Virus genome (UHGV): UHGV-0018639
Length of the DNA stretch: 64,000 nt
Origin: a virus
Strand: one strand, 5' to 3'
Of the stretch, positions 4,365 through 60,550 are shown one piece after another. Within the stretch, counting starts at the first letter, position 1; every line of letters begins with the position of its first letter. Under the pieces are notes generated by a model. That model had not been told where the DNA came from, did no database searches, and saw only the letters and a program-made list of their open reading frames with translations. The translations under genes and the position numbers were made by a program.

Positions 4365-5584
4365 AAAATGTGTGCCCCCTTACTTCGTGAGGAGTATTGA
4401 ATAAGTTATCTTAAAGCTGGAAAACCGTAAAGTCTCTTATACCTTCAGGGTGCTTCTCTCAAAAAGGTTGCGAAAGTAGAAACAAATAAGAGAATGGCAT
4501 AAGGTGCAAACCTAAGTGCTGCTAATTGGCAATCAGCGACTAAAATAGAAAAAGGAGTATTTATAATGAGTGCAAAGAAAAAGACACATGAACAGTTTGT
4601 AAAGGATATTATAAATAAATATAATATACAAAAAGAGGATTTTACCTTTTTATCAGAATATCAAGGTTATGATAAGCCTATTATTTTTCAATGCAACAAA
4701 TGTGGAAAAATAAAGACTATTGTGGCTGGAGCTTTGCTAAGGACTTCGTCTCATAAAAAACACATATGTCCATGCTACGGTTACGCTCAAGAATGGCACG
4801 AAGAAAATCAATTTTTGCGAATTTGGATAAAAAAGCAATCTAAATATGATATAATAAAATATACTCCGGGGCTTTTAGAAATTCAACTAAAATGCAAAAA
4901 ATGTGGGACTTTTCAAAAACGCTCGGCTAAAAGTTTAGAGAAAAATGATGAGTGTTTGGGCTGTGAGAACAAATGTAATATTAAGAAACCGCAGCAAGTA
5001 TTTGAGCAAGAATTGAAAAATTTCTGTGGAGAAGAATATCAATTAGTTGGAGATTATAATGGATCTGATAACTATTGTCTATTGAGGCATACTCTTTGTG
5101 GGAAAATTTATCGAGCTAAGCCTCATTATCTTCTAACAGGAAAAGGCGGAACTTGTCCTATTTGCCAAATAAAATCAAAAGGAGAAAAAGTAATTGCTGC
5201 TTTTCTTGATAAAAAAAATATTGTTTACTATACACAATATAGATTAGATGAATTTCGGCGTGCACCATATGATTTCTTTTTACCAGACCATAATTTATTA
5301 ATTGAATTCCAAGGCACTCAGCATTTTCAGCCAGTTCCGCGTTTTGGAGGAGAATTGACTTATCAACGACAAAAAGAAGTTGATGAAAAAAAAGTAGAAA
5401 TAGCTAAAAAAGAAAATAAGCAACTACTCATTATAAATTACAATCAAATCGATGAAATAGAAACTATTTTAGCTCAACGACTATCCCTTTATGGGAGTAG
5501 CAATGATATTATTGCGAAACGATAACTATCTCTTAGGAGATAAAGATATAGTCTAATCTTATATGAAAATATAAGTCTTTTTTG
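4365..5584 (+). mobile_element. group I intron (1220 nt) interrupting terL, carrying a homing endonuclease ORF in the P8 region
   Basis: P-like ggttgcgaaag (4466-4476), Q-like ggtgcaaacc, R element tcagcgactaaaa (4534-4546), S element aagatatagtct (5540-5551), a P9 hairpin with GAAA loop, and terminal G5584. P1 is gggU(4361-4364):Gccc(4374-4377). P10 is acacg(5585-5589):ugugu(4369-4373). Splicing gives an in-frame 602-aa TerL. Confidence 0.7.
4566..5525 (+). CDS. intron-encoded homing endonuclease candidate: zinc-finger repeats plus C-terminal Vsr/DUF559-like PD-(D/E)xK motif (PYDFFLPDHNLLIEFQGTQH)
   Basis: ORF track 319 aa with its own RBS (aaaggag). It sits between the intron R and S elements. 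There are multiple CxxC pairs and a C-terminal motif resembling Vsr-like endonucleases. Confidence 0.65.
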   Translation: MSAKKKTHEQFVKDIINKYNIQKEDFTFLSEYQGYDKPIIFQCNKCGKIKTIVAGALLRTSSHKKHICPCYGYAQEWHEENQFLRIWIKKQSKYDIIKYTPGLLEIQLKCKKCGTFQKRSAKSLEKNDECLGCENKCNIKKPQQVFEQELKNFCGEEYQLVGDYNGSDNYCLLRHTLCGKIYRAKPHYLLTGKGGTCPICQIKSKGEKVIAAFLDKKNIVYYTQYRLDEFRRAPYDFFLPDHNLLIEFQGTQHFQPVPRFGGELTYQRQKEVDEKKVEIAKKENKQLLIINYNQIDEIETILAQRLSLYGSSNDIIAKR

Positions 5585-7039
5585 ACACGAAGATTTATTT
5601 GTGCCCCCAACAAAAAACAAGGCGCACAAATAGCTAAAGAAAAGATAAATGAAATTTATGACAAGTGGCCTCTTATAAGGCGAGAAGTGGTAAGAGGCGA
5701 TATTGACCCAATGCCGGGAAATTTTGGTTCAGATTATGTCAGCTTGACATTTCGTAACGGCTCTACATTTGAAGTTTGTGGTGCGTTGGAAAGCACCCGT
5801 GGATTGCGTAAATATGGTGGTTTGATAGATGAGATTCGTGACCATGAGGAACAGCCGATAAGTGAAATTGTCCTTCCTCTTCTCAATGTTTCACGCCGTC
5901 TTCCTGATAACACTGTAAATCCACGTGAACCGAACCAACAAACAATTTTTGCTACAAGTGCGGGCACTAAGATGTCATTTGCATATGACAAACTCATCTC
6001 GGTTTTTGAAAACTCAATAATTCTACCGAATCAATCATTTACATTCGGCTGTGACTATAGAGTCCCAATGATGCACGGACTTGTAGACCGTAAATACATC
6101 AACAATTTAAAAATGGACCCCTCTTTCAACGAAGAAAGCTTCGCTCGTGAATATATGTCCTTGTGGAGCGGGGCTTCTGACGAAAGTTGGTTTAATTTTA
6201 GCAAAATGGAAAAACATCGTAAAATAAAAAACCCAGAATTTCATGCGAATTTTAGAGCTGGAGTCAATCAATTCTACTTTATTTCGGTAGACGTAGCAAG
6301 ACTGGCCGGCTGTCAAACTGTTGCGTGTGTTTTTCGTGTAAATATTAGAAATGATAGATATTATGCAACGCTTGTAAATGTTATTGTACTTGGTAAGCAA
6401 ATGGAACTAAAAACATTTACTCAACAAGCAATTGATCTCAAAAAACTTATTAGGGACTATAAACCAAAAGAGTGTCTTATAGATACAAATGGTTTAGGTG
6501 TTGGCCTTGCCGATGAAATGATAAAAGTCCATTATGATGAACACGGTGAAATGCTTCCAGCATATGGTTTCTTCAATGATGACTCTTATAAAAAAGTACA
6601 GCCAAAAGACGCTATTTGTATCTTATATTCAATGAAAGCCAACGGCCCATTGAATAGTGAAATACATGGGACAACATATGCCCGCATAAATGGCGGTATG
6701 ATTCAGTTTCTAATAAAAGAGCAGGATGCGAAAATTGCTTTGCTCGCTACAAAGGTAGGACAGAAGATGAGTATTGAACAGCGCGTCAAGCGACTTATGC
6801 CGCATGAAATGACATCGAGCCTTTTTGAAGAAATGGCAAATCTTCGTTTGAAAAGAACAGGCTCTGGCACTGATATAGTGCTCGAACAAATCAATACTCG
6901 ATTCCCTAAAGATAAATATTCTGCTTTTTCCTATGGTGTTTGGCGTATCAAACAATTAGAGGATGAAGCAACTAAAAAGCGTCGGCGCCGCACACCCGGT
7001 GTAAAGCGCCAACTAACCTTTTTTTCAGGAGGTCGCTAA
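5585..7039 (+). CDS. terL: terminase large subunit, exon 2 (ATPase Walker B LIDEIRDHEE, motif III TSAGT, nuclease domain)
   Basis: ORF track 5582..7039. Walker B and the coupling motif are visible. Exon 2 starts at A5585 after terminal G5584. Confidence 0.85.
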   Translation, partial: TRRFICAPNKKQGAQIAKEKINEIYDKWPLIRREVVRGDIDPMPGNFGSDYVSLTFRNGSTFEVCGALESTRGLRKYGGLIDEIRDHEEQPISEIVLPLLNVSRRLPDNTVNPREPNQQTIFATSAGTKMSFAYDKLISVFENSIILPNQSFTFGCDYRVPMMHGLVDRKYINNLKMDPSFNEESFAREYMSLWSGASDESWFNFSKMEKHRKIKNPEFHANFRAGVNQFYFISVDVARLAGCQTVACVFRVNIRNDRYYATLVNVIVLGKQMELKTFTQQAIDLKKLIRDYKPKECLIDTNGLGVGLADEMIKVHYDEHGEMLPAYGFFNDDSYKKVQPKDAICILYSMKANGPLNSEIHGTTYARINGGMIQFLIKEQDAKIALLATKVGQKMSIEQRVKRLMPHEMTSSLFEEMANLRLKRTGSGTDIVLEQINTRFPKDKYSAFSYGVWRIKQLEDEATKKRRRRTPGVKRQLTFFSGGR

Positions 7040-45492: not shown

Positions 45493-46002
45493 TCAAATTT
45501 TGAGTTCACAAATGTGCGCTTTTTCCAAAGTTTGGTGAACATCTATAAGGCGCTGATTACGAGAGCCACGGAATGGCAAAGTTAAATCACGCTGCTCAAG
45601 AATAAAAGGGCCATCTACCACAACATCGCAAAGTTGGAGTGTTGTTGAAATGCGGCGAGGGGGATTGAAATCCTCCCAGTCCAAGTGGTAGCCAGTATAG
45701 AGCCAAATGTCTTTATTAGGAAATTTTTCTTTGATTTCTCTTAACAACTTATAGATAGTATTGTTGTTTTGTGGCTCAAGTGGATGACCGCCAGAAAGAG
45801 TGATTCCTTTTATCCAAGGCTTTGAAAGAGCGTCAAATAGTTCTTCTTTCGCGGTGTCATCAAAAAGTTTACCTGCGCAGAAATCCCAAGTTTCAGGATT
45901 ATGACATTCTTTGCAATGGAGAGAACATCCTGAAACCCAAAGAACGACACGCACGCCAAGACCATTTGCGATGTCGCATTTTGTTATTTTGATATAATTC
46001 AT
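45493..46002 (-). CDS. nrdG: anaerobic ribonucleotide reductase activating protein (radical SAM)
   Basis: The GCSLHCKECHN CxxxCxxC motif. The start MNYIKITKCDIANG at 46002 overlaps the nrdD stop. Confidence 0.75.
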   Translation of the reverse strand: MNYIKITKCDIANGLGVRVVLWVSGCSLHCKECHNPETWDFCAGKLFDDTAKEELFDALSKPWIKGITLSGGHPLEPQNNNTIYKLLREIKEKFPNKDIWLYTGYHLDWEDFNPPRRISTTLQLCDVVVDGPFILEQRDLTLPFRGSRNQRLIDVHQTLEKAHICELKI

Positions 46003-46979
46003 TATGATTCTCCCAAATGTAAGACACGCTCTTTTATTTCTTGGGTACGGCCAAAATTCCAAAAATTAGAGCCAATATAGCCGCAAGTACGACGTGCAAC
46101 GTTCAAGGTAGAATGATCACGGTTGCCGCAATTTGGACAATACCACTCCATATTATCATCAATGAGAATTTCGCCATCGAAGCCACATTTCTGACAGTAG
46201 TCGCTCTTTGTATTAAGTTCAGCATACATTATGTTATCATAAATAAACCTATAAAGCTCTAAGACGGCAGGAATATTGTTTTGTAAATTAGGAACCTCTA
46301 CATAGCTTATTGCACCGCCCGGACTAAGTTTTTGAAACTCAGCCTCGAAAGCAAGTTTATCAAAAGCATTGATTTCTTCAAAAACAGGAACATGATAACT
46401 ATTTGTAATATAATTACGGTCATGCCCATCGAGTTTAATAAATATATCATTGCCAAATCGCTGTTTTAGGCAACGCGCAAACTTATATGTTGTACTTTCA
46501 ATAGGAGCACCATAGAGAGAATAATCAATTTTTTCAGCAGCTTTCCATTCAGCACACTTCTCATTTAAACGTGCCATTACTTCAAGAGCAAAAGGTTTCC
46601 CATCAGTCTGTGTATGGCTATGCCTTGTCATATATTTTACGCACTCATAAAGACCAGCATATCCAAGTGAAATTGTTGAATAGCCATTATGAAGCAATTT
46701 ATCAAGCCTCTCACCTTTTTCAAGACGAGCGAGTGCGCCATTTTGCCAAAGAATAGGGGCAACATCACTAAGGGTTCCCTCAAGACGCTTATGTCTAAGT
46801 TGAAGTGCTTTGTGGCATAATTCAGTACGCTCTTCAAATAGCTGCCAAAACTTATCAATATTACCGCCTGAACTAAAAGCTAAATCTGGTAAACTAATTG
46901 TAACAACACCTTGGTTAAAACGACCATAGTATTTTGGGTTATTATTTTCATCAACATAAGGAGTTAGGAAGCTCCTGCA
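46002..46979 (-). CDS. nrdD: anaerobic ribonucleoside-triphosphate reductase NrdD, exon 2 (glycyl-radical C-terminal part: CRSFL..., RRTCGYIG..GRTQEIKERV)
   Basis: ORF track 46002..46982. Exon 2 starts at 46979 (UGC AGG..) after terminal G46980. Confidence 0.8.
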   Translation of the reverse strand, partial: CRSFLTPYVDENNNPKYYGRFNQGVVTISLPDLAFSSGGNIDKFWQLFEERTELCHKALQLRHKRLEGTLSDVAPILWQNGALARLEKGERLDKLLHNGYSTISLGYAGLYECVKYMTRHSHTQTDGKPFALEVMARLNEKCAEWKAAEKIDYSLYGAPIESTTYKFARCLKQRFGNDIFIKLDGHDRNYITNSYHVPVFEEINAFDKLAFEAEFQKLSPGGAISYVEVPNLQNNIPAVLELYRFIYDNIMYAELNTKSDYCQKCGFDGEILIDDNMEWYCPNCGNRDHSTLNVARRTCGYIGSNFWNFGRTQEIKERVLHLGES

Positions 46980-47748
46980 CATATTATCCCATATCCCTAT
47001 GGGTACTGACTATATCTTCATTCCACTAAAAAGTGGAGTTGTCTTCCGCTTCGAGTGAGTGCCTATCTCTCACCCTACTCCCTTACATTCATCAGGGATA
47101 GTCGATACACTTCATTCATCATAATAAAAATTATAAGGAGTATTATTTGTCCGTTGCTGTAAAAGAAAGGTCCTGATACGATGTCTATCAATACCAGTTT
47201 TACGTTCGCATTCTCTCATTGACTTATAGTGAAAACGTTCTTTTGTCTCTTTATTTTCAGCAATTATCCAAATTCCACGCCCTTTATGCGGATTTATATA
47301 ATTGTTTTCCTGATAAGCCTTTCTAATATTTTCGCTGTGAGATACGGCCCGCAAATTAGAAAGTTCATTATGTGATTTATTTCCATCAATATGGTCTACA
47401 ACTGTACAATTATCAAGAAAAACTTCCGCCATAAGGCGATGAACGCGAGTTCGTATTCGATTGCCACCAAGACAAAGAACTACGTGTTGATACATATCAA
47501 TGCCAATATATGGACTAATTATTCTTCCCGTTTTAAAATTGATTATTTGAGCATCTTCATTTATACCAAATTGATTATTCAAACTTGGAATGGGCATAAA
47601 TTCTTTCATTATCTCACCTCCTTTTCATATTTATGATATATGATGAATTTTAGCACGGCCTCATCTGTTCTAGACCTAGCCGTTAGCCGCATTTGCGACA
47701 CCCGCGGGCGCGGTTCAAAAGATTTTATATGAGCTGCAGTTTTCACTT
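46980..47748 (-). mobile_element. group I intron (769 nt) in nrdD with an HNH homing endonuclease ORF
   Basis: On the - strand the exon 1 end ..ugu aug ggU(47749) joins ugc agg(46979..) to give CMG|CRSFL (the conserved NrdD MGCRSFL). P1 is uaugggU:Gcucaua (rc of ~47720-47726). P10 is cugca:ugcag. R-like gtatcgactatcc and S aagatatagtcag (rc of 46991-47003). P9 hairpin and terminal G46980. Confidence 0.8.
47112..47609 (-). CDS. HNH homing endonuclease (VDHIDGNKSHNELSNLRAVSHSEN)
   Basis: 165 aa with RBS aaggagg upstream. It lies inside the nrdD intron. Confidence 0.8.
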   Translation of the reverse strand: MKEFMPIPSLNNQFGINEDAQIINFKTGRIISPYIGIDMYQHVVLCLGGNRIRTRVHRLMAEVFLDNCTVVDHIDGNKSHNELSNLRAVSHSENIRKAYQENNYINPHKGRGIWIIAENKETKERFHYKSMRECERKTGIDRHRIRTFLLQQRTNNTPYNFYYDE

Positions 47749-48927
47749 ACCCATACAAGGATAACAACGACCCTTACCAGTTTTGTCTTTTTTTAATTCT
47801 AACATCATTTTTTCAGAAATAATATCAGGGACAAGACGCTTTGCTGTACATTTTGCTGCAAGTTCTGTTAAGTAAAAATACTTATCGCCCGGCTGTAAAT
47901 TATCAGGTTCAAGGACATAAAGTAACTTAGGAAATGCAGGCGTAATATAAACGCCTTTTTCATTCTTGAAACCTAAAATACGTTGTTTAATAAACTCCTC
48001 TATCAGCATTGCTAATTCATTCTTATATTCTTCTGTCTCGTTTAAATACATAAATACAGAAAGAAATGGTGCTTGACCATTTGTTGTTGTCATTGAATTG
48101 ACTTGATAGTTGAAAGTCTGAACAGCATCAACAACTTCTTTTTTTGTATCAAGTTGCGCATACTTATGCGCATTCTCATCGTCAAATCCCCAATCTTTAT
48201 ACTTCTTGAGATAAGCTTCATAAGAGCTTCTAACAAAAGGTGCAAGATGTGTAAGAGTAATAGTAGCACCACCATATGAAGAAGAAGCGACGCCAAGAAT
48301 TACTTGCGTTGCAATCGTAGAAGCTGTCAGAATTCTATGCGGCTTTTCAATTTTAACGTTATTAATTACAGTACCATTTTGAAGGACATCCTCTAAGTTA
48401 ATAAGATCGCAATTATGGAGGGTCTTCTGGCCGAAATAATCAATATCGTGGAAATGTATAATACCTTTCTCATGCGCGTCCACAATCTCAGGGGGAAGAA
48501 GAAATCGTTTAGAGATGTCTTCGCTAACAATACCGGCCATATAATCACGCTGTGTCGTTACAAGGTCGGCATTTTTATTTGAATTTTCAGCGTTCCAATA
48601 ATCACTTGTACCACTGATTAGTTCAAGTAAATCTTTGTCTGTTGTATTGCCTTCGCGCGCGAGTCTATGTTTATACCTGTATTCAACATAGCGCTCAGCC
48701 ACGTCTTTTCTTGAACTAGCCATAAGCCGCTCAACTACTAAGTCTTGAATTTCTTCAACGCTCAAATCTCTATTAAGCTTTTCTATTTGAGTAGCCACCA
48801 TTCGTGCCTTATTTTTGGCATAAGATGTTTCACGTCCATCTACTTCCAAAAAGGCTTTGAGAATGGCGACTCTAATTTTCTCTTTATCAAATGGAACCGT
48901 AGTTCCATCACGTTTTATGACGTACAA
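47749..48927 (-). CDS. nrdD: NrdD exon 1 (ATP-cone VIKRDGTTVPFDKEKI and N-terminal catalytic part; 393 codons)
   Basis: ORF track 47743..48927. The last 2 codons plus the stop of that ORF are intron-encoded. Confidence 0.8.
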
Positions 48928-50267: not shown

Positions 50268-51759
50268 TTACTCACCCCTTACATGAGTTGTTATACGGCC
50301 ATATTCATCAATATCTGTTATTTCTTCAACCAGATGGTATGGGGTTCGGGAATATTTCTTCGCCAGAAATCCATCATCCTTTCTAATGCCACATACGATT
50401 ATCTTGTTGCCACGTGAGAAAGTGCTGCGACTGATAACGTGTTTCTTCCCATCAGGCCCTCTCTCCGAAATTTGCTTATCATAATTAGCAAATGCTTCGC
50501 CAAAAATTTTGACCTGAACAACGCCATCTTTTGTCAATAACGAAACAATTTTCTTTGCCTTATCCCTATCCAATACAGTTCCGCAAATACGATGTATTCT
50601 ATAAATCGGAACCGGCGCGCTATCACTATCCTTGCCGCGCGGTTTGAAGTAAGTCTCAACATCAGGCTGCTCTTTCAGTTTGAAGAAGTTTGAAAAGCCT
50701 TGCGCACGTTCATCAACATTTTGAAGTTCATGTTCGTGGAAATAACATGAAACGCTATCCATCTCCCACTTGCTTATTGAACCAAGACAATATTTATTCC
50801 AGATATCTCGCGTTAATCGCTCATTCACGGTATCTAGCAACTCATCATGATTTTCTTTTATCCACTTGCGGACATTATCCATATATTTCTTATAAATTTT
50901 GTCCCAAGCCGTGATGTTAATTTTGAAGCCACTTTCAGTTTCATTGCTTGCGCTCAAACAGTCAAGTGAAAAATTCTTATCAAGGAAATTCAATGCGATA
51001 TTATCTATGCCATAGAATGATGTGTCTAACTTCATTTTCTTGAGATACTTTGTGAAGTTATAAACACGACGCTCAAAATCAAGATTTTCGGGAATCAACC
51101 CAAAGTTTATCAACATTGCCATATTCTGAAGAGTGATACGTTTCTTTGTGTCGCTAATCAGGCTGACATATTCGCGCATTAAATCTACTCTATCACCAAA
51201 TGCATCAAAAGCTCCGCATTTTATGAGGTTTATCATTTGTGGCTTGTTGATTTTTACTTTGGAAAGAAAATCGGAGATTGAGTTATAGGGTCGATTTGCG
51301 ATTATGGATTTAACGATGTCTTCGCCGACTTTGACGATACCGCTCATACCATAACGAATTGTTGAATTTTCAACATCAGGAGAGAAAGTAAAAGTAGATT
51401 TGTTGATATCTGGAGGAGAAACCGAAATACCGGCCATTCGCATTTTACCGATTGCTGATGCAATTTTGCCATAGTTAGTCGTTTTGACTTTTTTCTTTTT
51501 CTTTTTTACATCAATTTTTTCTTCTTCGTCTTCATCTTCGTCGTCATCTTCGGTATCATCAACAAATTCTTCAATACAGTTGTTATAACTATATTCAATA
51601 ATATCTTCTGGCGTTTCGTCATCGTTCTCATCATTTGATTCATTGCCGCCGCTATCGCTAATCAAACACGCGCAATTCCAAAAAATTGTTGGAAAACGAT
51701 ATGCAAGATTCATTTCCTGCAAAGCCACAAGCGAGTAGGAAAGAGTATGTGCTCGACAA
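50268..51759 (-). CDS. dnaE: DNA polymerase III alpha (DnaE-type) exon 2 (..CRAHTLSYSLVALQEMNLAYRFP.., acidic insert, HhH GISVSPPDINKS, OB domain)
   Basis: ORF track 50268..51728. The frame is open upstream to 51759. Exon 2 begins UUGU.. after terminal G51760. The joined GYSF|CRAHTLSYSLV matches DnaE GYGFNKSHSAAYALV. Confidence 0.8.
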
Positions 51760-52862
51760 CTTACCGCACATAGTTTCTTATGCCAGATTTACTCTGTTGC
51801 GGTCTGGACTATACCATCAATTTCATTGTTTCCAATGAAAAAGTCCTTATTATAGTCTCTGAACGTTTTTCTTATCTCAATATATTTTCTATTCATACCA
51901 AAAGGCTTATTATAAACTAGAGCGATTAGTTTTAGGATATTGAACTGATTAGCGGTTTCAACTCTATATAAGCTATCTTCAGTTTTTCTTATATGTAAAT
52001 CTTCCATAAAGAAATTTTCTACTAAGATTTTTTCAATCCATTTGATAAATTCTTCAGATGCTGATACTATATAAAATTGAGCACCGCCATAAGAAGTTTT
52101 ACTGACACACCCATCACCGTCTATTATACCACGAATAATGTAAGGCAAATATCGCTTTTCTTGCTCATACAATTGCGGCGCCGGTATAATATATGTTTTA
52201 TTCTTTATTATACCATAACGGGCAGCCTCAGCTTGAAGACCCGGCCTATTTATCAATACCCTATATCGAGTTTGCTTTCCAGCTTGAGGATAGGCCTTAT
52301 AAGTTATTCCAATTCCTTTAGCTATAAAAGCAATAACATCTTCGTCCACCATATCCAACCCTAAGCCATCTCGATCGCTCAATAGATATCCATCCGTAAG
52401 CAGTAGCCCGATTAGATATGCATCGAACGGACTTTTGATTTCAGATAACGAATAGGTATATCCTCGACGATTATCTTGCGCTTGCCGTATAATTTCTTGA
52501 TATTCATCTGGATAATACTTTTTTACCTTGTCGGTTATAGACTTCTTTGTTTTATAACCATATCGACCCATTAGCTCTGAAACCGATGCCCCATTCTTAT
52601 ATTCTTCAACTAATTTTAGTTCATCTTCTTTTGATATTTTCTGATAACCCATAGTATATCCCTCCTAAGAATAAGTAGCCCTATTCAAATAGAAATACAC
52701 TAAAATAAGAAACTTCGCTGCGGATTATCCAATTCTAAATGATTTTACTATACCCTCTCTCTTTCTGAGAGGCCGCGATATTATTGCTAATATCGTTTAG
52801 TTATTTAGACTCTAAGGAAGTCCCCGCAATTTCAAGGATTTATACTCGTCTTGTATTAGTCA
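51760..52862 (-). mobile_element. group I intron (1103 nt) in dnaE with a LAGLIDADG homing endonuclease ORF
   Basis: - strand: an 8-bp P1 uacucguU(52870-52863):Gacgagua (rc of 52848-52841). P10 is uugu:acaa. P element aaauugcgggga (rc of 52821-52832). Q element aauccgcagc (rc of ~52716-52725). S gguauaguccag (rc of 51803-51814). P9 hairpin and terminal G51760. Confidence 0.8.
51789..52652 (-). CDS. LAGLIDADG homing endonuclease (two motifs LIGLLLTDGYL and IRGIIDGDGCV) with N-terminal HTH
   Basis: 287 aa with RBS aggaggg. Its C-terminal end overlaps the intron S/P9 region. Confidence 0.8.
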   Translation of the reverse strand: MGYQKISKEDELKLVEEYKNGASVSELMGRYGYKTKKSITDKVKKYYPDEYQEIIRQAQDNRRGYTYSLSEIKSPFDAYLIGLLLTDGYLLSDRDGLGLDMVDEDVIAFIAKGIGITYKAYPQAGKQTRYRVLINRPGLQAEAARYGIIKNKTYIIPAPQLYEQEKRYLPYIIRGIIDGDGCVSKTSYGGAQFYIVSASEEFIKWIEKILVENFFMEDLHIRKTEDSLYRVETANQFNILKLIALVYNKPFGMNRKYIEIRKTFRDYNKDFFIGNNEIDGIVQTATE

Positions 52863-55360
52863 AACGAGTACCCGCGCTGAACTCTGAACAAAACGTCCCA
52901 TACATAATGGGCAAAAGTCATATCACAACCTTTTTCTTTTGCATTTTCAAAATAGGCTTTTTCACATTCATCAAAGAGTTTGCCTTGTTTTTTTGCAATT
53001 GCCTTTCGACATTTATCTGCAAAAGTCAGATTATTCCCTCCGAGTCTTTCTTCCTGCAGAAGCTGCATCATTCCTTCTTGACTCTCACATATGCCACTCG
53101 TTATCGCATTATGTCCAATTAACCATTTTATATCTTCATTTTTTAATCCATATTGAATCATTTCGTCTCGCCATTCATTGATATTCAAACGATATCTTGC
53201 CCACATATCAAGTGGCTGCTCAGCTCCTTTTTCAGGAGCCATTAGACGAATTACTGAATTCAAAACAGCTAATTCACTAACGTTTTTAGGATGAGTTAGC
53301 GCTATGCCAGAAATGCCGCTCGGTTGTTCCATTTGAAACAAACTGGATATCTTATGATTCCAAACCATTTCCCACATTTCTGGTGCAGTTCGTTCAAGAT
53401 TATATATGCCAATTACACTTTCATAAGTTTCACGTAATGTTGGCTTTCGCTCTATATAACCATAATCACATAACAAATCTAGCTCATTGTGTATTTTATC
53501 AAGAGCTTCAATTGACAACATATCAATTTTGATCAGCGATGCGTCCTCCGCATCATGGAGTTCAAAAGCCGTAATGACCGTGCCATCAGGCGCGCGTGTT
53601 AGCGCTGTCGATTCCGTAAAAGGCTCGTCAACGAAGATCACTCCACCGGCGTGGACGCCAATGCCACAAATTAACCCCTCAATTTTTGAAGCAACTTCCC
53701 AAACATCACTGTAGGTTTTCATTGCTTCAACAAATTGCTTTACTGGCTTAAAACCTTTATCTTCATCACCCTCTATACATTGGGTAAGTGAGCGAAGTTG
53801 CCCGCGATCAGCTGGAATCAGAGATGCCAAATAGGATGCTACATCAACATCAATTCCCAAGCCACGGCAGGCCGTTAGAATTGCTGATTTAGATTTTTCT
53901 GTTTTGAATGTAATAACATTCGCAACTCTGTCTTCCCCATAAAACTCACGGAATTTCTGTAAAACTTGTGCACGACGTCCGCCTTCAATATCAGTATCAA
54001 CGTCCAATACCGACGCACGTTCGGGATTAAGAAAACGCCAATGAAATACTTGAGTTTCTTCTTGAATTGGATTTATCTGTGTTATATCTAATGCATATAA
54101 CAAAATAAATCCTGCACCTGAACCACGCCCCGGCCCAACAAGAGAACCAGCTTCCCAACATAAATCAATATTTTTCTGCAGATTCAGAAAATAAGTCGAC
54201 CAATGCGTGTGATTTGTTATCGACGAACGCCATGTATCATCAAGACAAATATTTATCTCATCATACGCTCGTTTGTTCTGCAAACCCGGCTTCCGTTGGA
54301 TGCCGTCAATAATCGCCCAAACCAGTTTTCTATCACCCCAATAATCAGAGTTATAGAAAGTTTCTAAATAAGGAATTTCATGTTTGAGAATATCATATGC
54401 TGCCTCATCTTCAGGAAATGTTTTCCAATAAAGTTCTGGAATTTTTAAGGGGCGCATTAGTGAAAAATCTTCACACATTTCACCTATCTTGAGAATATTA
54501 TAATATGCAACTTGAAGTTGTTCTTCGGTGAAATAATCGAAATACTCTTCTATTTCTTTCGTATTCATAAGATACGTAGTAGCATAGAAATCATCTACTT
54601 CTCGTTCACCATTCTGTGCATTGAGATATGCCTTATGAATCGCGCGATCTTCTTTTTTGAGATAATGGCTATCAGTTGTTATAACATAAGAAATGTCGTA
54701 TTTAGCTGATAATTCAAGCAACTTTTTATTTACATAAATTTGTTCTTTGTTATGACTTGGTTGCATTTCAAAAAAGAAATTACCGTGCCCAAAAAGTTTA
54801 TCCAAAGATAAAATCCAATTTTCAATTTTGCTATTGAGCGAGCTATCATTTCGTGCTTTGAGAAGCTGAGTAGGAAGACAGCCACCGAGGCAAGCTGTCA
54901 TTCCCACAATGTGTCCCGGATTAGCCCCTACGATTTCAAACAAATCACTATAATAAGTTGGCATACGACGCATACCACGCGCCATATAACTACGTAATCC
55001 TGCACGAGTAGATAATTCTCTAATTTGTTTATGCCCAATCGCGTCTTTTGCTAACAAAATAAAGTGATAATATTTATCTTGTCCTGTAATAAAATTCGAT
55101 GCATTTAACCCATTTCGACAAAGATAAATTTCATTTCCTTGAATAAATTTGAAATCAGGGTATTTTTCTTTTACTTTTTTATAATACTTTTCTGCCTTAA
55201 TCGCGCCAGATATTGACTCATGGTCTGTAAGAGCGACGACTTTATGACCCAACTCGATGGCGCGATCAATTAGGTCTGAGACTTTTATTATACAGTCTCG
55301 AAGCCTTTCATTAGAATAATCCGAGTGGTTATGTAATGACCCCGGATACGGAATATTCAA
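52863..55360 (-). CDS. dnaE: DNA polymerase III alpha (DnaE-type) exon 1 (PHP domain LHNHSDYS.., GRGSGAGFILLYALDITQINP, ..RGYSF)
   Basis: ORF track 52856..55360. The exon ends at the second U of UUU (52863); the D codon and stop of the ORF track are intron-encoded. Confidence 0.8.
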
Positions 55361-55423
55361 CTTATCACCCCTTTCCTTTATTTTCTAATATAATTATACC
55401 AAAAAATTCCCCAAAAGTCAAAC

Positions 55424-55891
55424 TCAAAAACTCCACTCCGCGTTTTCAACTTCAACGTCTACGATTTGCAATTGTGGGGTATAATTTCCAAGCCATTCGT
55501 TGACATTCGGCTTGCCCACAATCGTTAAACACATTTCAGGCCATTTGTGAAGTTTTTCAATCAAATCTTTCGCACGGAACTTTATGTAAGTAATTCCATT
55601 CTTTTCAATTCGTATCGTGTCTTGACTCTTACCAATTATCTTTACATCCGCAGGTCTTATGTAAAGGTTTGTTATCGCCATAAGACTTTGAGGATTGTTC
55701 TGACCCCAAACTCTCTCATATCGCGCGAGGTCGAATATGATGTTGGATATATCATTGTCGCTTGCTTTGCGGACAAAATCGACGTCGTAATTATTATCGC
55801 CAAAATCGTAAGCCACGAGTTGAGTGTTAGATAAGGCAAGAAGTTCATTATAGCTATTAGCTGGAATGGCAAACCCAGCTGCATTAGCGTG
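55424..55891 (-). CDS. recJ: RecJ-like DHH-family exonuclease, exon 2 (starts HANAAGF.. = DHHA1 GGGHxxAAG motif)
   Basis: ORF track 55424..55918 (GTG start). The frame is open upstream to 55891. Exon 2 starts CAC GCU after terminal G55892. Confidence 0.65.
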   Translation of the reverse strand, partial: HANAAGFAIPANSYNELLALSNTQLVAYDFGDNNYDVDFVRKASDNDISNIIFDLARYERVWGQNNPQSLMAITNLYIRPADVKIIGKSQDTIRIEKNGITYIKFRAKDLIEKLHKWPEMCLTIVGKPNVNEWLGNYTPQLQIVDVEVENAEWSF

Positions 55892-56135
55892 CGTGTAATC
55901 CCTTGTTTCCAAGGGCACTGACTATTTCTTACATATGTAAAACATATGAATACCCATTTCGGGCGGCGTACCAATAGCCGTCCTACTTCTCCGATTCGAG
56001 AATAGTCGATACAGGTTCCTTGTCGTATGACAAGTCTTCCCACGAGATTAGCATATCTTTCGACTTAGCTTTCCTCGTTAGCCGCGAATGCGACCCCACT
56101 GGTAAGTGGAAAAGGTATAACGGGCCAATTCCTCA
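55892..56135 (-). ncRNA. small ORF-less group I intron (~244 nt) in the recJ-like gene
   Basis: - strand: exon 1 ..GAU UAC GUA CAG GGU(56136) then an in-frame UGA, and exon 2 CAC GCU AAU GCA GCU GGG, give ..DYVQG|HANAAGF (DHHA1 motif). R-like guaucgacuauuc (rc of ~56006-56018). S-like aagaaauaguca (rc of ~55919-55930). P9 is cccuug-gaaa-caaggg, then terminal G 9 nt later. P1 is gggU:Gccc (4 bp). Confidence 0.6.
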
Positions 56136-57383
56136 ACCCTGTACGTAATCAAATAAACTAGTATCTAACAAATAATCCTTGAACGACGTAAGCGCGCTCT
56201 GTGAAAGACCTCTAATACTTCCCTTTATCATTCCATCGGGGCCTTCGCGGCCTATCATTGTAGGCTTATGATACCGCGCGCTAAGCTGTGTTGCAATCAA
56301 ACCATTCAACTCAGGCGGGAAGTTATCATCGTCATCAAGTTTTACAAATAAAATTTTGTTTTCAAGTAAATCATACTTATGTATCTTATACTCAAGTTGC
56401 TCAGTTGCTTTTTCTTTTGCTTTATCTTGGTGCGACTTCGCGTTCGTACATTCGCGTGCACTTTCGATTGCAAGCTTTTCAAGAGTCCCCTTCGCACCAC
56501 GCTTGCCGCTAGGCACAAGTTCCTCACCAGCAACAACTGCACGATAGAGACGTTTTTTCTCATCTTGTGAACCTACACGTATCATTGCGTTGATAAGCGG
56601 CGTTATGTAAAATGCGACAGTTGTTGGATTGACCTCGCCGCCCATTGAGTAGGACTGCTTTTCAACAAGAGTTTTGAGGAAAAAGTTTCGTATGTTGGCA
56701 CAACCTTGCTGGACAATGAACTGATTTTCGTATGATAGCATACTTACCATATCACTTATAATACCCAACGCCGCTAAGTCAATATATTCCCAAGCCCAAT
56801 TATGGCCAAACGCATCATCAAGCGCACGGCAGAACTGCCACACGACACCAGCGCCGCACAGGTCTTTGTTCTGATAAGCGGGGCTTGTCTGATTGTTTAT
56901 TAGAATCATATTAGGCGGAATTTCGCTTGTGGGTTCTAATTCGTGGTGGTCGATGCAGAGCACGGGACAGTCTAACTGTTTGATATACTCACCATCGTTA
57001 GTTCCCGCGTCCGGGACTATGACACCGCTCCAACTATGTTCAAGCAACTTATCCATCACATCACTACAACCGTGCTGTTTGCCGCTGTGTATTATCTGTA
57101 TAATATGCTTTACGGGATTGAGTCGCTTTATGTATTGATAAATAATGCCGCTTGACGTCAAGCCGTCCGCATCACAATCACAAATTAGCCCCAGTGGATT
57201 TTCATCATTCAAGTTTTGTCTGATAAAATCAATACCTTCATCTATATTATCCAGCGCGCGGTAACTCTGTAAGCACGACTCATCAGGATTCAAGAACAGA
57301 TCAACGTCTTCAATTCCTCTCAATCGTAAAATTTGTTCTCCATAGTTTTCATATATTCCATCGTTTGTCAATTTATATTTCAC
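56136..57383 (-). CDS. recJ: RecJ-like DHH phosphoesterase/exonuclease, exon 1 (DCDADGLTS, IDHH motifs)
   Basis: ORF track 56133..57383. DHH motifs I-III are visible. Confidence 0.7.
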
Positions 57384-58426
57384 TGCACTTTTACCCTCCT
57401 GCGTAGCAGTTCTCGGAAAATTTCTTCGCCCCTATCGGTAGGGCTGTCTTTTGGCTCTGTCAATCTATCTCTATCATAAATAAAGGAAAAATTGGTTAGT
57501 TTACTATATTTTTTACACATTGCATAGAGTTTATTAAAGTAAACATCTTCGCCGGGTTTTTCTTCGTTGTCAAAGCAAAGAACAACTTCATCAGGACGCC
57601 CAACTTTGATAATTTCGCGCATGGCCCACTTGTTTAGATGAGAGCCGCACACAGCAACAGAGCAGTTATTCATATTAAACCCCTCTTGCTGAAGCACTGA
57701 CTTCTCTCCCTCAAAAATATAGCAGATATGACTCCGCTTTATCTTTTGTTTATTTTGATAAAGTCCATATGGGTTCAGCGAAAGTGGATGACTATACCAA
57801 ATTCCTTCAACTTGAACTGGCATATACTTACCTACATTCTCAACTTCCCATTGATTGAGCGCACGTCCTCTTATTCCAACGAGTTCGCCCTTTATATTAT
57901 AATGAGGAATTATAATTTTGTTTTGGCTTATTGAATAGCGAATGTCAAACTTATCCATTGCCTCTTTTGTAATTCCATCGTTCAACCATTCAGGTGAATA
58001 AAACTTTGTGAATACATCAAGGACGTGCTTATCATAGACTTTCAATTCTTTCGGCTTTTGCGGCTTGTATTTATCTCGTTCACTGACATATGGTTCTACC
58101 AAAGACGAACGCTCAGCTATTGAGTAAGTAGAACAATTTATTGCAGGAAGTAAAATATCATTATGCCAATCATACAAAATGTTTCTTGTATCATAGTAAT
58201 GCTTCAAAAAACTAAAAATTGACATATTGCCGCACTCACTATAACAAACAAATAGATGAGTGTCAAAGTAATAATACAATTTTGGGCTTCCTTCGTGCGC
58301 ATTATGACAAATTGTTGTGCAGACTAAACAATTGTCCTTTCTTTGAACATCGCCGCTAAGTTGTCGGAGTAGATTTTCTACTCCATCTGGCGTTAGTCCT
58401 TTTACAATACCTTCATAGTCAATCAA
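57380..58426 (-). CDS. dnaG: DNA primase (DnaG-like: CHC2 zinc finger + TOPRIM IFEGEKSV...DNEE)
   Basis: 348 aa with zinc-binding C..C..H..C..C and TOPRIM acidic motifs. Confidence 0.65.
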   Translation of the reverse strand: MIDYEGIVKGLTPDGVENLLRQLSGDVQRKDNCLVCTTICHNAHEGSPKLYYYFDTHLFVCYSECGNMSIFSFLKHYYDTRNILYDWHNDILLPAINCSTYSIAERSSLVEPYVSERDKYKPQKPKELKVYDKHVLDVFTKFYSPEWLNDGITKEAMDKFDIRYSISQNKIIIPHYNIKGELVGIRGRALNQWEVENVGKYMPVQVEGIWYSHPLSLNPYGLYQNKQKIKRSHICYIFEGEKSVLQQEGFNMNNCSVAVCGSHLNKWAMREIIKVGRPDEVVLCFDNEEKPGEDVYFNKLYAMCKKYSKLTNFSFIYDRDRLTEPKDSPTDRGEEIFRELLRRRVKVQ

Positions 58427-59978
58427 TCTTATTCAACCTTTCTATCAATTCACTTATTTCGTTCGATTCACTATCATCCCAATTATAGACTTCAATATCA
58501 TTTACGACAAAATCATCAAGCGGTTCCAGCAAAGAATTTGTGATAAACAAATCTTTCTTTTTCAAACGCCCCAAATCAACATATGACCAAATACGTGTTT
58601 GCGTCCATCGGCCACTTCTTAACTTATATACGTCCGCAACTTGGTTTGGCGTTCCATACATACTAATGAAATTGTCTTTTAGAATTAGTAGCTCATCATT
58701 TGTTGGACGCGACATAATCAAACCATTATCTGCTTTATTGATAATCGCACGGCTGCCCGCGAGAGAAGATTCGTTTCTTATATCTTTATTATCATCAGCT
58801 TTCGCATTTACTTGTGTCGAAGTAAAAACCGCAACATTCAATTCAACAGCTAAATTTTTTAGTGCGGTTGTCATAAATAAAAGTAATTCATCATTTCGAA
58901 GTGCTGTCCCTTTGAATTCATTTACCAACGAAGGACTTATAAAGATATAGTCATAAAACACAACATCGACTTCGTTTATAATACACTGGTCGCGCACAAC
59001 TGCATTTATGAGTTCAATCGTCGGCTCAGGCATACGTATGACAATGAAATTCTTTTCGTATTGTTTCATTACTTCAAGAGCTTGCTTGATAATGCGCCGT
59101 TCTGCCTCATCAAAGTTTGCATATCGGAACCTGTCTTCGTTAATATCGGTAAGATAGGCTAAAACCATTTTCTGAATTTCTTTTTTCTGCTGCTCAGTTA
59201 TGATGAACAAAATTCTTTGCGTATTTCCGCACTGAATCCATTTGCCATTTTCTGTGTTATAACGAACAGGATAGGCAAGATAACAAGCATCCATTACTGC
59301 AGTACGCGTCTTGCCAAGGCCGCTACCCGCAGAACGGACTGTCAAAGTCCCTTTTAACGCGCCATTCATTATTTCATTACAAATCGCCCCCTGTATCGGA
59401 TAGCCAATTTCTTCTGTTGAGCCAAAACTTTCGACCAGTTCTTCAATACCATCAGCGAGACTTTCAATTTCAACTTCTTCACCAGCCGCATATTCACTTT
59501 CCAAATGAATAAGTTGTTTTTTCAACCCCTTAATAATATCTTGCGGCGTCAGTTCCTTGAACCGCTCATTTATCTCAGTCGCGCGTGGAGCCGTTAAATC
59601 TTTTTCATAGAATGATTTGACACTATACCCTTGCTTTTCAAGGTCAGTCATTAGATTGAACTTTTTGAGCTGATTATAATAAAACCCAAAGTTCTCTACG
59701 TCGGCCAGCTCAATCAAGTCCTGAACTCGTTCGAGTCCATTCGCCTGTTCAAACAAAGACTTTGACATTGGATCTTGCCCAAAAACACCTTCAATATCTA
59801 TTGGCCTTATCTTAGGAGCACCGCCTGTGTATAACATATAAATGGCTTTGAAGACACGCCTATCAAACTTATCCTCAAAGTCGAGTGGCGTCAGTGAATA
59901 TTTGTCCGTTTCATTCAACAGTTTGGGCTGAAGTATCAAACCGCCAAGAACTTGATTTATAGAAGTGCGGTCAGTCAA
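58419..59978 (-). CDS. dnaB: DnaB-like replicative helicase (Walker A SAGSGLGKT)
   Basis: 519 aa with an N-terminal DnaB-like domain and a RecA-fold ATPase with Walker A/B. Confidence 0.65.
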   Translation of the reverse strand: MTDRTSINQVLGGLILQPKLLNETDKYSLTPLDFEDKFDRRVFKAIYMLYTGGAPKIRPIDIEGVFGQDPMSKSLFEQANGLERVQDLIELADVENFGFYYNQLKKFNLMTDLEKQGYSVKSFYEKDLTAPRATEINERFKELTPQDIIKGLKKQLIHLESEYAAGEEVEIESLADGIEELVESFGSTEEIGYPIQGAICNEIMNGALKGTLTVRSAGSGLGKTRTAVMDACYLAYPVRYNTENGKWIQCGNTQRILFIITEQQKKEIQKMVLAYLTDINEDRFRYANFDEAERRIIKQALEVMKQYEKNFIVIRMPEPTIELINAVVRDQCIINEVDVVFYDYIFISPSLVNEFKGTALRNDELLLFMTTALKNLAVELNVAVFTSTQVNAKADDNKDIRNESSLAGSRAIINKADNGLIMSRPTNDELLILKDNFISMYGTPNQVADVYKLRSGRWTQTRIWSYVDLGRLKKKDLFITNSLLEPLDDFVVNDIEVYNWDDSESNEISELIERLNKID

Positions 59979-60550
59979 TCTTCATCATCCTCCATTGAAT
60001 AAGTCTTGCGGTTGTTCTTCTTTTTCGGAGCGGACTGCCGCACAATCTGTTTCTGCATTTCAGCTTGCTTCTTTGCCTGCTCTTCAATTCGCTTTATGAT
60101 ATCACTATCGCGCTGGTTCTGTTGCTTCCAATATTCGCGTGAATCATCATAAACATAATCTACGATTCCAATCGCACCATTAGAACGTTCAATTGAGTTT
60201 TTCTTTACGTCGTAAAAATAAACCAGCGCAAAATAAATACCTTTTGGAGTGCGTTTCTTTTTGAGATTCGATTGCCACTGCTTGTCAAACAACGGATAAT
60301 TGACAGCTATCTTCAAATGATTTTTCAAAAAGTAATATGTGCTATTCTTCCATTCTTCATCTGAAGCTGTATCTGTAATTTTCTTGCCTTTTCTCAGCTC
60401 CATTGCTTTTGGATAACATTCGGTGTGATAAAACCACTTTGTCGGACTTTCAATCCACGTGTCTTCTGGCACGACATTTCTGTCAAACTTTTCGTGGCAA
60501 TAGCGGCACTCGACTTCTCTCTTTGGATATTTTAACTGTGTTTTTGCCAC
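59975..60550 (-). CDS. hypothetical protein with N-terminal CxxC..C..C zinc-binding region
   Basis: ORF track 191 aa with a Lys-rich C-terminus. Confidence 0.5.
   Translation of the reverse strand: MAKTQLKYPKREVECRYCHEKFDRNVVPEDTWIESPTKWFYHTECYPKAMELRKGKKITDTASDEEWKNSTYYFLKNHLKIAVNYPLFDKQWQSNLKKKRTPKGIYFALVYFYDVKKNSIERSNGAIGIVDYVYDDSREYWKQQNQRDSDIIKRIEEQAKKQAEMQKQIVRQSAPKKKNNRKTYSMEDDED

What the first reader, a model, noticed from the sequence alone, without database searches (positions are those of the whole stretch)
55892..56135. ORF-less mini group I intron (~244 nt) in a RecJ-like DHH exonuclease gene, detectable only by protein continuity
Both flanking ORFs are truncated relative to RecJ-like proteins, and neither half alone carries the full motif. 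The DHHA1 motif GGGHxxAAG is reconstituted as ..DYVQG|HANAAGF when the segment 55892..56135 is removed. That segment has R-like (guaucgacuauuc) and S-like (aagaaauaguca) sequences, a cccuug-gaaa-caaggg P9, and a terminal G. It has no endonuclease ORF, so standard annotation would call two separate hypothetical proteins.
Basis: partly seen in the sequence, partly recalled or inferred. Interest (0 to 1): 0.65.

Follow-up and report, generated by a model that had tools for sequence, protein, structure and literature searches.

The report
ORF-less group I intron in phage RecJ-like gene
A 244-base self-splicing-type (group I) intron without its own endonuclease gene interrupts a phage RecJ-like exonuclease gene exactly inside a catalytic motif; it is real, but it is an ordinary new example of a well-known kind of phage element.

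Summary
On the minus strand, 55892..56135 separates a 416-aa DHH ORF from a RecJ_OB ORF. Removing exactly these 244 nt gives a 571-aa protein that aligns without a gap to SPbeta YorK, Geobacillus virus E3 gp97 and solved RecJ structures. The junction is ..DYVQG|HANAAGF.

Close relatives (92-94% aa identity) include uninterrupted alleles that differ by exactly this insertion.

The insert has a full group I core: P1 with U·G at the 5' splice site, P2-P9 with P7.1/P7.2 (subgroup IA-like), and a terminal G. Rfam RF00028 scores 35.3 bits, which is below its gathering score of 50 but has E 2.6e-7. A covariance model built from it finds more than 100 related phage introns, with 91% of cells paired and compensatory changes in 51 of 54 pairs.

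More distant RecJ-like homologues carry the same intron at the same site, with a GIY-YIG homing-endonuclease ORF in loop L6a. The window copy is therefore the endonuclease-less form of a mobile intron.

The window holds at least three further intron-split genes. Splicing itself is inferred, not shown.

The parts
56136..57383 (-). Exon 1 of the RecJ-like (SPbeta YorK-like) ssDNA exonuclease gene, codons 1-416, containing the DHH domain. It ends ...CAG GGU.
   Evidence: ORF list. Pfam DHH 7e-11. Alignment to YorK and E3 gp97. dN/dS 0.045 against L004.
55892..56135 (-). The group I intron: 244 nt with no ORF. It begins with UGA, an in-frame stop for unspliced mRNA, and ends with the terminal G (omega-G) at 55892.
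   Evidence: RF00028 35.3 bits, E 2.6e-7, model positions 1-253. Exact indel against intron-less alleles. CM R1 family search and covariation.
55424..55891 (-). Exon 2, codons 417-571 plus the stop codon. It starts CAC GCU = H A, completing the G|HxxAAG DHHA1 motif, and contains the RecJ OB domain.
   Evidence: Pfam RecJ_OB. Alignments. dN/dS 0.03-0.04.
56122..56139 (-). P1 hairpin. Exon GGGU plus intron UGA pairs with the internal guide sequence UUGGCCC (56122..56128). The loop is GGAA. The U56136·G56125 wobble marks the 5' splice site.
   Evidence: Read from the sequence. All 7 pairs show compensatory changes across the family (helix 1). The last exon base is T in 5/5 close intron-containing alleles and also in the distant L042. 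It is G or C in the 8 distinct intron-less alleles.
56094..56111 (-). P2 hairpin (intron positions 25-31/36-42, loop UACC).
   Evidence: MFE fold. L004 changes U-A to U·G. Family covariation, helix 2, 92% paired.
56081..56085 (-). P3 5' strand GCGGC (intron positions 51-55). It pairs with 55963..55967.
   Evidence: Rfam alignment. L004 shows G-C to G·U. L042 has AUGGC/GUUAU at the same place. Family helices 3-5.
56042..56078 (-). P4-P5-P5a domain (positions 58-94), with A-rich J4/5 and J5/4 and a GAAA loop on P5a.
   Evidence: Rfam alignment. MFE. Family helices 6-8 are 87-97% paired, and every pair has compensatory changes.
56013..56041 (-). P6/P6a (positions 95-123). P6a is CUUGUC-AUAC-GACAAG. 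Its 4-nt loop is where relatives carry the GIY-YIG ORF.
   Evidence: In L003 and L004, one P6a pair changes from U-A to C-G. L042 has CUUGAC ... GUCAAG flanking a 242-aa GIY-YIG ORF.
56002..56007 (-). P7 5' strand GACUAU, the R element (positions 129-134). It pairs with 55920..55925. G129-C216 is the presumed guanosine-binding pair.
   Evidence: Rfam R/S match. 94.6% paired in the family against 17-40% for slid controls. The guanosine-binding assignment is by analogy only.
55973..56001 (-). P7.1 (positions 135-148) and P7.2 (positions 149-163) hairpins, lying between P7 and P3'. These are the peripheral elements typical of subgroup IA.
   Evidence: The hairpin directly after P7 recurs in almost all relatives with different stem sequences: UCUC/GAGA, CUCC/GGAG, CCCC/GGGG, CUGC/GCAG and others. 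The AGUAG...CUAUU second hairpin is less certain.
55963..55967 (-). P3 3' strand GCCGC (positions 169-173).
55932..55948 (-). P8 hairpin CAUAUG-UUUUA-CAUAUG (positions 188-204).
   Evidence: MFE. Family helix 11 is 96% paired, with 37-55 double changes per pair.
55920..55925 (-). P7 3' strand AUAGUC, within the S element AAGAAAUAGUCA.
55893..55918 (-). P9.0 (GUG/CAC) enclosing P9 (CCCUUG-GAAA-CAAGGG), immediately before omega-G 55892.
   Evidence: MFE. Family helices 12-13 are 94-98% paired with many compensatory changes.

Best explanation
Window 55892..56135 (minus strand) is a bona fide subgroup-IA-type group I intron. It lies in the RecJ-like ssDNA-exonuclease gene (a SPbeta yorK homologue) of a large phage whose replication module resembles those of SPbeta and Geobacillus virus E3.

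Mechanism, inferred from the anatomy and from established group I chemistry:
1. The pre-mRNA folds into P1-P9.
2. The internal guide sequence UUGGCCC pairs with exon GGGU and the first intron bases. This places the U·G wobble at the 5' splice site.
3. An exogenous guanosine bound in P7 attacks after U56136.
4. The terminal G55892, positioned by P9.0, then occupies the G site.
5. The freed 3'-OH of exon 1 attacks after G55892 and ligates GGU|CAC. This restores the G-H of the DHHA1 GGH motif and yields a 571-aa enzyme.

Unspliced RNA terminates at the UGA that forms intron bases 1-3.

The intron carries no homing endonuclease. It is the ORF-less form of an intron that, in RecJ-like homologues of about 59% and 35-40% identity, sits at the same codon boundary and carries a GIY-YIG endonuclease ORF in loop L6a. 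Its spread or persistence therefore depends on recombination with relatives, on an endonuclease supplied in trans, or on vertical descent after ORF loss.
For: Shown in silico:
- The joined protein is colinear with uninterrupted homologues and with RecJ structures, with no gap at G416|H417.
- Intron-less alleles at 92-94% aa identity differ by exactly this insertion.
- RF00028 matches end to end: 35.3 bits, E 2.6e-7.
- CM R1, built from three copies, finds 129 hits in phage contigs. 91.3% of cells are paired against 37-49% for slid controls. 51 of 54 pairs have compensatory changes. The covariation score is 0.31 against 0.02-0.05.
- P7 is 94.6% paired. P7.1 covaries.
- Differences among the three close copies preserve the helices: one P6a pair U-A to C-G, P3 G-C to G·U, P2 U-A to U·G, P5 A-U to G·U.
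- Both exons are under strong purifying selection between intron-containing genomes, with dN/dS about 0.04 at dS about 0.8-1.0. The downstream exon must therefore still be expressed.
- The intron is 92% identical between genomes whose exons are 83-87% identical.
- The last exon base is U in all six intron-containing alleles examined (five close relatives plus L042). It is never U in the 8 distinct intron-less alleles.
- The same site carries a GIY-YIG-containing version in L042, L027, L063, L118, L103, L055 and L008.
- The window has other intron-split genes.
Against: - No experimental or transcript evidence of splicing was available.
- The Rfam score is below the family's gathering threshold (35.3 against 50). 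The hit is absent from both the gathering search and the whole-window relaxed search.
- P10 is only about 2 bp.
- P5 and P7.2 are short and irregular.
- The covariation alignment was fitted to the model. Its loci were chosen by a 15-mer in P7, and the sequences are related, so the statistics are inflated to an unknown degree.
- Subgroup IA2 as opposed to IA1 or IA3 was not formally discriminated.
Confidence: 0.92

Rival explanations
1. It is a decayed group I intron relic that no longer splices. The RecJ-like gene in this phage is then a pseudogene, or is expressed as a truncated DHH-only protein.
For: There is no homing endonuclease ORF, which is the stage of the homing cycle at which introns are expected to degenerate. 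The Rfam score is below gathering. P10 is weak.
Against: - Every core helix is intact, and changes between copies are compensatory.
- Exon 2 has dN/dS 0.03-0.04 at near-saturated dS between intron-containing genomes.
- The intron is more conserved than the exons.
- The splice-site U is retained in all intron-containing alleles.
Confidence: 0.05
2. The DHH half and the DHHA1/OB half are genuinely separate genes. They would make a two-subunit nuclease, and the 244 nt would be an intergenic spacer. The second ORF would start at the GTG at 55918.
For: Gene callers annotate it this way in public assemblies, as 416 aa plus 164 aa. A GTG-initiated ORF exists at 55424..55918.
Against: - The split falls between the G and the H of an invariant catalytic motif.
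- The spacer is a complete group I core.
- Close relatives have a single 571-aa gene.
- The extra N-terminal residues MPLETRDYT are encoded by the P9/P9.0 helices.
- No Shine-Dalgarno-like sequence precedes the GTG.
Confidence: 0.01
3. The insert is a different kind of insertion, bridged by something other than RNA splicing: a MITE or IS remnant, a group II intron fragment, or a translational bypass element like the one in T4 gene 60.
For: None specific. This was considered only because the insert is short and has no ORF.
Against: - Only RF00028 matched among 4227 Rfam families at a meaningful E-value.
- No terminal inverted or direct repeats are needed to explain the boundaries. The boundaries match the U|...G| rule of group I introns.
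- 244 nt is far longer than any known bypass.
Confidence: 0.01

Closest known systems
Small ORF-less subgroup IA2 group I introns of Gram-positive phages, for example the Staphylococcus phage Twort orf142 introns (own knowledge; Twort nrdE introns are cited in PMC3888941; review PMC3984707)
   Same: About 250 nt, with no ORF. Located in a phage protein-coding gene. Core has P7.1/P7.2, a GACUA/UAGUC P7, GNRA loops, U·G at the 5' splice site and a terminal G.
   Different: The host gene is a RecJ-like exonuclease. The sequence is not close to any record in the phage collection: the best blastn match covers 50% of the intron at 71% identity. Self-splicing has not been demonstrated here.
Phage T4 td, nrdB and nrdD (sunY) introns, and the Bacillus phage SPO1/SP82 DNA-polymerase and SPbeta bnrdE/bnrdF introns (PMC3984707, PMC2988022; partly own knowledge)
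   Same: Group I introns inserted at codons for catalytic motifs of DNA-metabolism genes. Relatives of the present intron carry a GIY-YIG ORF in a peripheral loop whose 3' end runs into the core. In my recollection the T4 introns have the same arrangement.
   Different: The window copy lacks the ORF. The phage is only distantly related to SPbeta (35% aa identity in YorK). SPbeta's own yorK is uninterrupted.
Collaborative homing systems: an ORF-less intron plus a free-standing endonuclease that targets the intron insertion site, for example cyanophage S-PM2 psbA and F-CphI (PMC6083498, PMC3984707)
   Same: An ORF-less intron sits at a conserved site. One relative (L129) has a free-standing GIY-YIG gene immediately downstream of the RecJ-like gene. 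That gene is 39% identical to the intron-borne endonuclease found at this site in other relatives.
   Different: The free-standing gene sits next to an intron-less allele, not next to the ORF-less intron. Its target is unknown. No homologue is present in this 64-kb window.
RecJ / SPbeta YorK-like DHH-DHHA1-OB ssDNA exonucleases (PDB 8y30, 2zxo, 1ir6)
   Same: The spliced product has DHH, a weak DHHA1 match with the G-H-x-x-A-A-G motif, and a RecJ OB domain. It is colinear with solved RecJ. The helicase-primase-RecJ-PolIIIalpha synteny matches SPbeta and Geobacillus E3.
   Different: Only 35-37% identical to the nearest cultured-phage proteins. The gene is interrupted.

Membership tests
Group I intron (Rfam RF00028) | Conserved catalytic core: P3-P4-P5-P6 and P7-P8-P9 helices with P/Q/R/S elements in canonical order | tested here: met
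   End-to-end RF00028 alignment. All core helices are supported by compensatory changes across 121 distinct related sequences.
Group I intron (Rfam RF00028) | Score at or above Rfam's curated gathering threshold (50 bits) | tested here: inconclusive
   35.3 bits, E 2.6e-7 in a 651-nt search. Not reported at gathering. This is a database cut-off, not a biological criterion. The other intron candidates in this window also fall below it.
Group I intron (Rfam RF00028) | 5' splice site after a U that forms a U·G wobble in P1 with an internal guide sequence | tested here: met
   U56136·G56125 lies within a 7-bp P1. P1 covaries across the family. The T is linked to intron presence: present in all six intron-containing alleles examined, absent from all 8 distinct intron-less alleles.
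Group I intron (Rfam RF00028) | Intron ends with a guanosine (omega-G) | tested here: met
   G55892. Most aligned relatives also end in G at this column.
Group I intron (Rfam RF00028) | Precise removal restores an uninterrupted functional gene | tested here: met
   The in-frame junction reproduces intron-less alleles base for base, apart from the synonymous GGT versus GGG/GGC. Gap-free alignment to homologues.
Group I intron (Rfam RF00028) | Guanosine-dependent self-splicing in vitro or splicing in vivo | not testable with these tools
   No RNA data. Needs RT-PCR or an in vitro transcription and splicing assay.
Subgroup IA (IA2-like) group I introns | Extra P7.1/P7.2 helices between P7 and P3' | tested here: met
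   A 34-nt insert lies at that position. The P7.1 hairpin covaries in dozens of relatives, and a second AGUAG...CUAUU hairpin is predicted in many.
Subgroup IA (IA2-like) group I introns | Discrimination of IA2 from IA1/IA3 by P7:P7' signature and peripheral elements | not tested
   No subgroup-specific models were available. The IA2 label is by resemblance to phage introns (PMC3984707).
Mobile (homing-endonuclease-encoding) group I intron | Endonuclease ORF within the intron | tested here: not met
   There is no room for one in 244 nt, and ORFs overlapping it are read-through artefacts. Same-site relatives do encode GIY-YIG. No homologue of those endonucleases is in the window.
RecJ-like DHH/DHHA1 exonuclease (host gene) | DHH domain, DHHA1 GGH motif and RecJ OB fold on one polypeptide | tested here: met
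   Pfam DHH 9e-12 and RecJ_OB 3e-10. DHHA1 at 18.6 bits is below its cutoff but spans the junction. PDB RecJ 8y30_A 1.4e-18 over residues 44-564.

The most novel reading that the evidence does not exclude
The codon 416|417 site of this phage RecJ-like gene may be a natural arena showing every stage of the mobile-intron life cycle:
- empty sites;
- an ORF-less intron (this window);
- the same intron with a GIY-YIG ORF in L6a (relatives at 59% identity);
- a related GIY-YIG gene standing free next to an intron-less allele (L129).

The most novel reading not excluded has two parts. First, the ORF-less intron is maintained because it disrupts the target of such endonucleases. It would then act as immunity against cleavage by co-infecting relatives. 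Second, the free-standing enzyme targets this very site, as in collaborative homing.
Probability: 0.2. Interest if true: 0.45.

Novelty: new member of a known kind. Interest (0 to 1): 0.3.

Why it matters
Practical point: Rfam's gathering cut-off misses this intron, and it also misses the other intron candidates in the window. Annotation pipelines therefore split the exonuclease into two 'hypothetical' genes, and this is already the case in public assemblies. This inflates gene counts and hides a complete RecJ-like enzyme.

Biological point: it adds a RecJ-like exonuclease to the list of phage genes that host group I introns. I found no description of this in the searchable literature. It also shows a recurrent insertion site inside the DHHA1 catalytic motif, with endonuclease-containing, endonuclease-less and empty states among relatives. 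That makes a tidy comparative system for intron gain and loss.

It does not change any concept. Phage group I introns at catalytic-motif codons of DNA-metabolism genes are classic.

Tried and rejected
- Rfam at gathering thresholds over the whole window gave nothing. The relaxed whole-window search missed this intron because of the speed filters and reported only 5460..5575. The intron appeared only when a 651-nt stretch was searched.
- Megablast of 52000..60000 against the phage collection gave no match, so the phage has no close cultured relative.
- Blastn of the intron against cultured phages gave only partial core matches of at most 50% coverage, in Enterococcus, Lactococcus and Bacillus phage introns. 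No orthologous intron was found.
- A literature search for group I intron + RecJ + phage returned 4 papers. The two phage-genome papers I read mention both terms but in unrelated contexts. The other two are on other topics, judging by title and abstract.
- I looked in the window for a GIY-YIG endonuclease that could mobilise the intron in trans. There was no tblastn hit.
- I looked for intron-less alleles carrying GGT at Gly416, which would be precise-loss or pre-insertion alleles. None were found in IMG/VR, while the control pattern with GGV found 7.
- An intein was considered for the neighbouring polymerase split and rejected. The LAGLIDADG ORF is in a different frame, with stop codons.
- P7.1 could not be put into the covariance model because MAFFT misaligned it by one column. 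It was examined separately by folding.

Full report
**1. Observation**

On the minus strand, a 416-aa ORF (56133..57383) carries a Pfam DHH domain. It ends ...LFDYVQG followed by TGA. A second ORF (55424..55918) carries a RecJ_OB domain.

- GUAUCGACUAUUC at 56000..56012.
- AAGAAAUAGUCA at 55919..55930.
- CCCUUG-GAAA-CAAGGG at 55900..55915.
- A G at 55892 and a U at 56136.

Deleting 55892..56135 (244 nt) joins GGU|CAC in frame and gives a 571-aa protein.

**2. Protein continuity**

The joined protein matches 220 phage records by tblastn, and 207 of them cover at least 80% of it in one piece. The best are Geobacillus virus E3 gp97 (37%) and SPbeta YorK (35%), both annotated as RecJ-like ssDNA exonuclease.
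- In a three-way alignment there is no gap at the junction, and G416 and H417 are invariant.
- The solved RecJ 8y30_A aligns over residues 44-564, with ...fgGHhmaagm opposite ...vqGHanaagf.
- A DHHA1 match spanning residues 345-439 appears only in the joined protein. It scores 18.6 bits, below its cut-off.
- The gene order helicase, primase, RecJ-like, Pol III alpha is the same as SPbeta yorI-J-K-L and E3 gp100-96.

**3. Intron-less alleles**

This is the strongest comparative evidence.
- A 5.8-billion-protein search found a 571-aa protein at 92% identity (P0001) and 416-aa proteins at 91% (P0002, P0003).
- IMG/VR gave two intron-containing loci (L003, L004) and two loci without this insertion (L005, L006), at 79-94% aa identity by best tblastn segment.
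- The DNA alignment shows that the uninterrupted alleles lack exactly the proposed segment.
- All five close intron-containing alleles read GTACAGGGT|CAC. The distant endonuclease-containing L042 also ends its exon 1 in GGT.
- Intron-less alleles read GT(G/C/T)CA(A/G)GG(G/C)|CA(C/T). None of the 8 distinct intron-less alleles examined has T as the last exon base.
- That T is the U of the U·G wobble that a group I 5' splice site needs.

**4. The RNA**

Rfam at gathering thresholds reports nothing. On a 651-nt stretch, RF00028 matches end to end at 35.3 bits (gathering score 50), E 2.6e-7.

I read the structure as follows. Intron position p corresponds to window coordinate 56136 - p.

| Element | Positions | Notes |
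|---|---|---|
| P1 | -3..3 / 8..14 | exon GGGU + UGA with UUGGCCC, loop GGAA |
| P2 | 25-31 / 36-42 | |
| P3 | 51-55 / 169-173 | |
| P4 | 58-63 / 89-94 | |
| P5 | 66-68 / 84-86 | |
| P5a | 72-74 / 79-81 | loop GAAA |
| P6 | 95-97 / 121-123 | |
| P6a | 102-107 / 112-117 | |
| P7 | 129-134 / 211-216 | |
| P7.1 | 135-138 / 145-148 | |
| P7.2 | 149-153 / 159-163 | tentative |
| P8 | 188-193 / 199-204 | |
| P9.0 | 218-220 / 241-243 | |
| P9 | 221-226 / 231-236 | loop GAAA |
| omega-G | 244 | |

P7.1 and P7.2 between P7 and P3' are the hallmark of subgroup IA (PMC3984707). P10 is only about 2 bp.

The three close copies differ mainly in the P6a and P7.1 loops, and their stem changes preserve pairing.

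**5. Family and covariation**

- A 15-mer from J6/7-P7 occurs in more than 120 IMG/VR stretches.
- A covariance model built from the three copies (R1) found 129 hits in 100 sources.
- On that alignment, 91.3% of cells form standard pairs, against 37-49% when partners are slid.
- 51 of 54 pairs have changes on both sides.
- The covariation score is 0.31, against 0.02-0.05 for slid controls and 0.089 for shuffles.
- P7 is 94.6% paired but nearly invariant. This is expected, because the loci were selected through it.
- P7.1 shows many different complementary stems.

Caveats: the alignment is fitted to the model, and the sequences are related.

The relatives interrupt NrdD-like, DnaB-like helicase, Pol III alpha, gyrase/topoisomerase, terminase and capsid-like genes. 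These labels are my reading of the flanking translations. They are the usual phage intron hosts (PMC3984707).

**6. The same site in distant relatives**

A tblastn of the joined protein against the fetched loci shows other RecJ-like genes broken at 416|417:
- Genes of about 59% identity (L042, L027, L063, L118, L103), with insertions of about 950 nt measurable in four of them.
- Genes of 35-40% identity (L055, L008), also with insertions of about 940 nt.

In L042 the insert starts GGGU|CGAUAAUUGUGGCCC and ends ...GGGAAUUACCG|CAU. It has the same P6a stem (CUUGAC/GUCAAG). A 242-aa GIY-YIG ORF lies in L6a, and its last codons overlap P6'-P7-P7.1.

The window intron is therefore the endonuclease-less form of a homing intron.

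Other states in the clade:
- L006 lacks this intron but has a GIY-YIG-containing insertion at codon 208|209.
- L129 has no intron. It has a free-standing GIY-YIG gene between the RecJ-like and polymerase genes, 39% identical to the L042 enzyme.
- No homologue of these enzymes lies in the window.

**7. Is it still functional?**

- Between intron-containing genomes, both exons have dN/dS of about 0.04 at dS of 0.8-1.0. Exon 2 is therefore still expressed as protein.
- The intron is 92% identical where the exons are 83-87% identical. This indicates either constraint on the RNA or recent spread.
- The alternative start at GTG 55918 lies inside P9.0/P9 and has no visible ribosome-binding site.

I conclude with about 0.92 confidence that the RNA splices as a group I intron. 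The chemistry (guanosine attack after U56136, then exon ligation after G55892) is inferred from the family and was not observed.

**8. Comparison and novelty**

This is a new member of a known kind.
- No phage record holds an orthologous intron.
- The searchable literature does not describe an intron in a phage RecJ-like gene.
- Every property is nonetheless standard for phage subgroup-IA introns.

The interest score should be lower than 0.65.

The modestly interesting aspects are:
- the recurrent catalytic-motif insertion site, with all occupancy states among relatives;
- the systematic miss by Rfam's cut-off;
- the intron density of this phage (see the items noticed in passing).

Noticed in passing
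window 46977..48927 (- strand): An anaerobic ribonucleotide reductase (NrdD-like) gene appears to be split by another intron. Exon ORF 47743..48927, HNH endonuclease ORF 47112..47609 (Pfam HNH_3, 2e-8), then a group I 3' core (AAGAUAUAGUC plus P9) matched by model R1 at 46977..47166 (30.9 bits, E 5e-8). Omega-G is at about 46980, and exon 2 starts CRSFLTP... (ORF 46002..46982). The 5' splice site was not mapped.
   Followed up: partly
window 50268..55360 (- strand): The DNA polymerase III alpha gene is split. An 834-aa N-terminal ORF (52856..55360) is followed by a 287-aa LAGLIDADG ORF (51789..52652, Pfam LAGLIDADG_3, 7e-10) in a different frame, so this is not an intein. A 486-aa C-terminal ORF follows (50268..51728). 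There is only a weak RF00028 hit at 52677..52828 (15 bits, E 0.66), and model R1 does not match. This is probably a group I intron of another subtype. Boundaries were not determined.
   Followed up: partly
window 3837..7039 (+ strand): A terminase-large-subunit-like gene seems interrupted. ORFs 3837..4400 and 5582..7039 flank a 319-aa zinc-ribbon-containing ORF (4566..5525, no significant Pfam family). An RF00028 match lies at 5460..5575 (30.6 bits, E 6e-4), and there is a weak R1 hit at 5451..5586 ending just before the downstream ORF.
   Followed up: partly
L006:2007..3000 (IMGVR_UViG_3300045988_159535): A close relative (94% aa identity) lacks the codon-416 intron. It has an insertion of about 994 nt at codon 208|209 of the same RecJ-like gene, encoding a 244-aa GIY-YIG protein (ORF 2105..2839). 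L091 has an R1 hit (65 bits) at the same codon boundary. This is a second intron site in the gene.
   Followed up: partly
L129:3277..3993 (Logan SRR31227720 contig): In a genome with an uninterrupted RecJ-like gene, a free-standing GIY-YIG endonuclease gene sits between the RecJ-like gene and the Pol III alpha gene. It is 39% identical over 152 aa to the intron-encoded GIY-YIG at the codon-416 site of L042. Its target is unknown.
   Followed up: partly
window 55892..56135 versus flanking exons: The intron is more conserved between phage genomes (92% nt identity, with differences concentrated in the P6a and P7.1 loops) than the protein-coding exons around it (83-87% nt, synonymous sites near saturation). 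This is compatible with recent lateral spread of the intron among these phages, or with strong RNA constraint. The two were not separated.
   Followed up: no
They sit in NrdD-like, DnaB-like, Pol III alpha, gyrase, terminase and capsid-like genes (my reading of the flanking translations). The window's introns score below Rfam's gathering threshold; the other family members were not scored with Rfam.
   Followed up: partly
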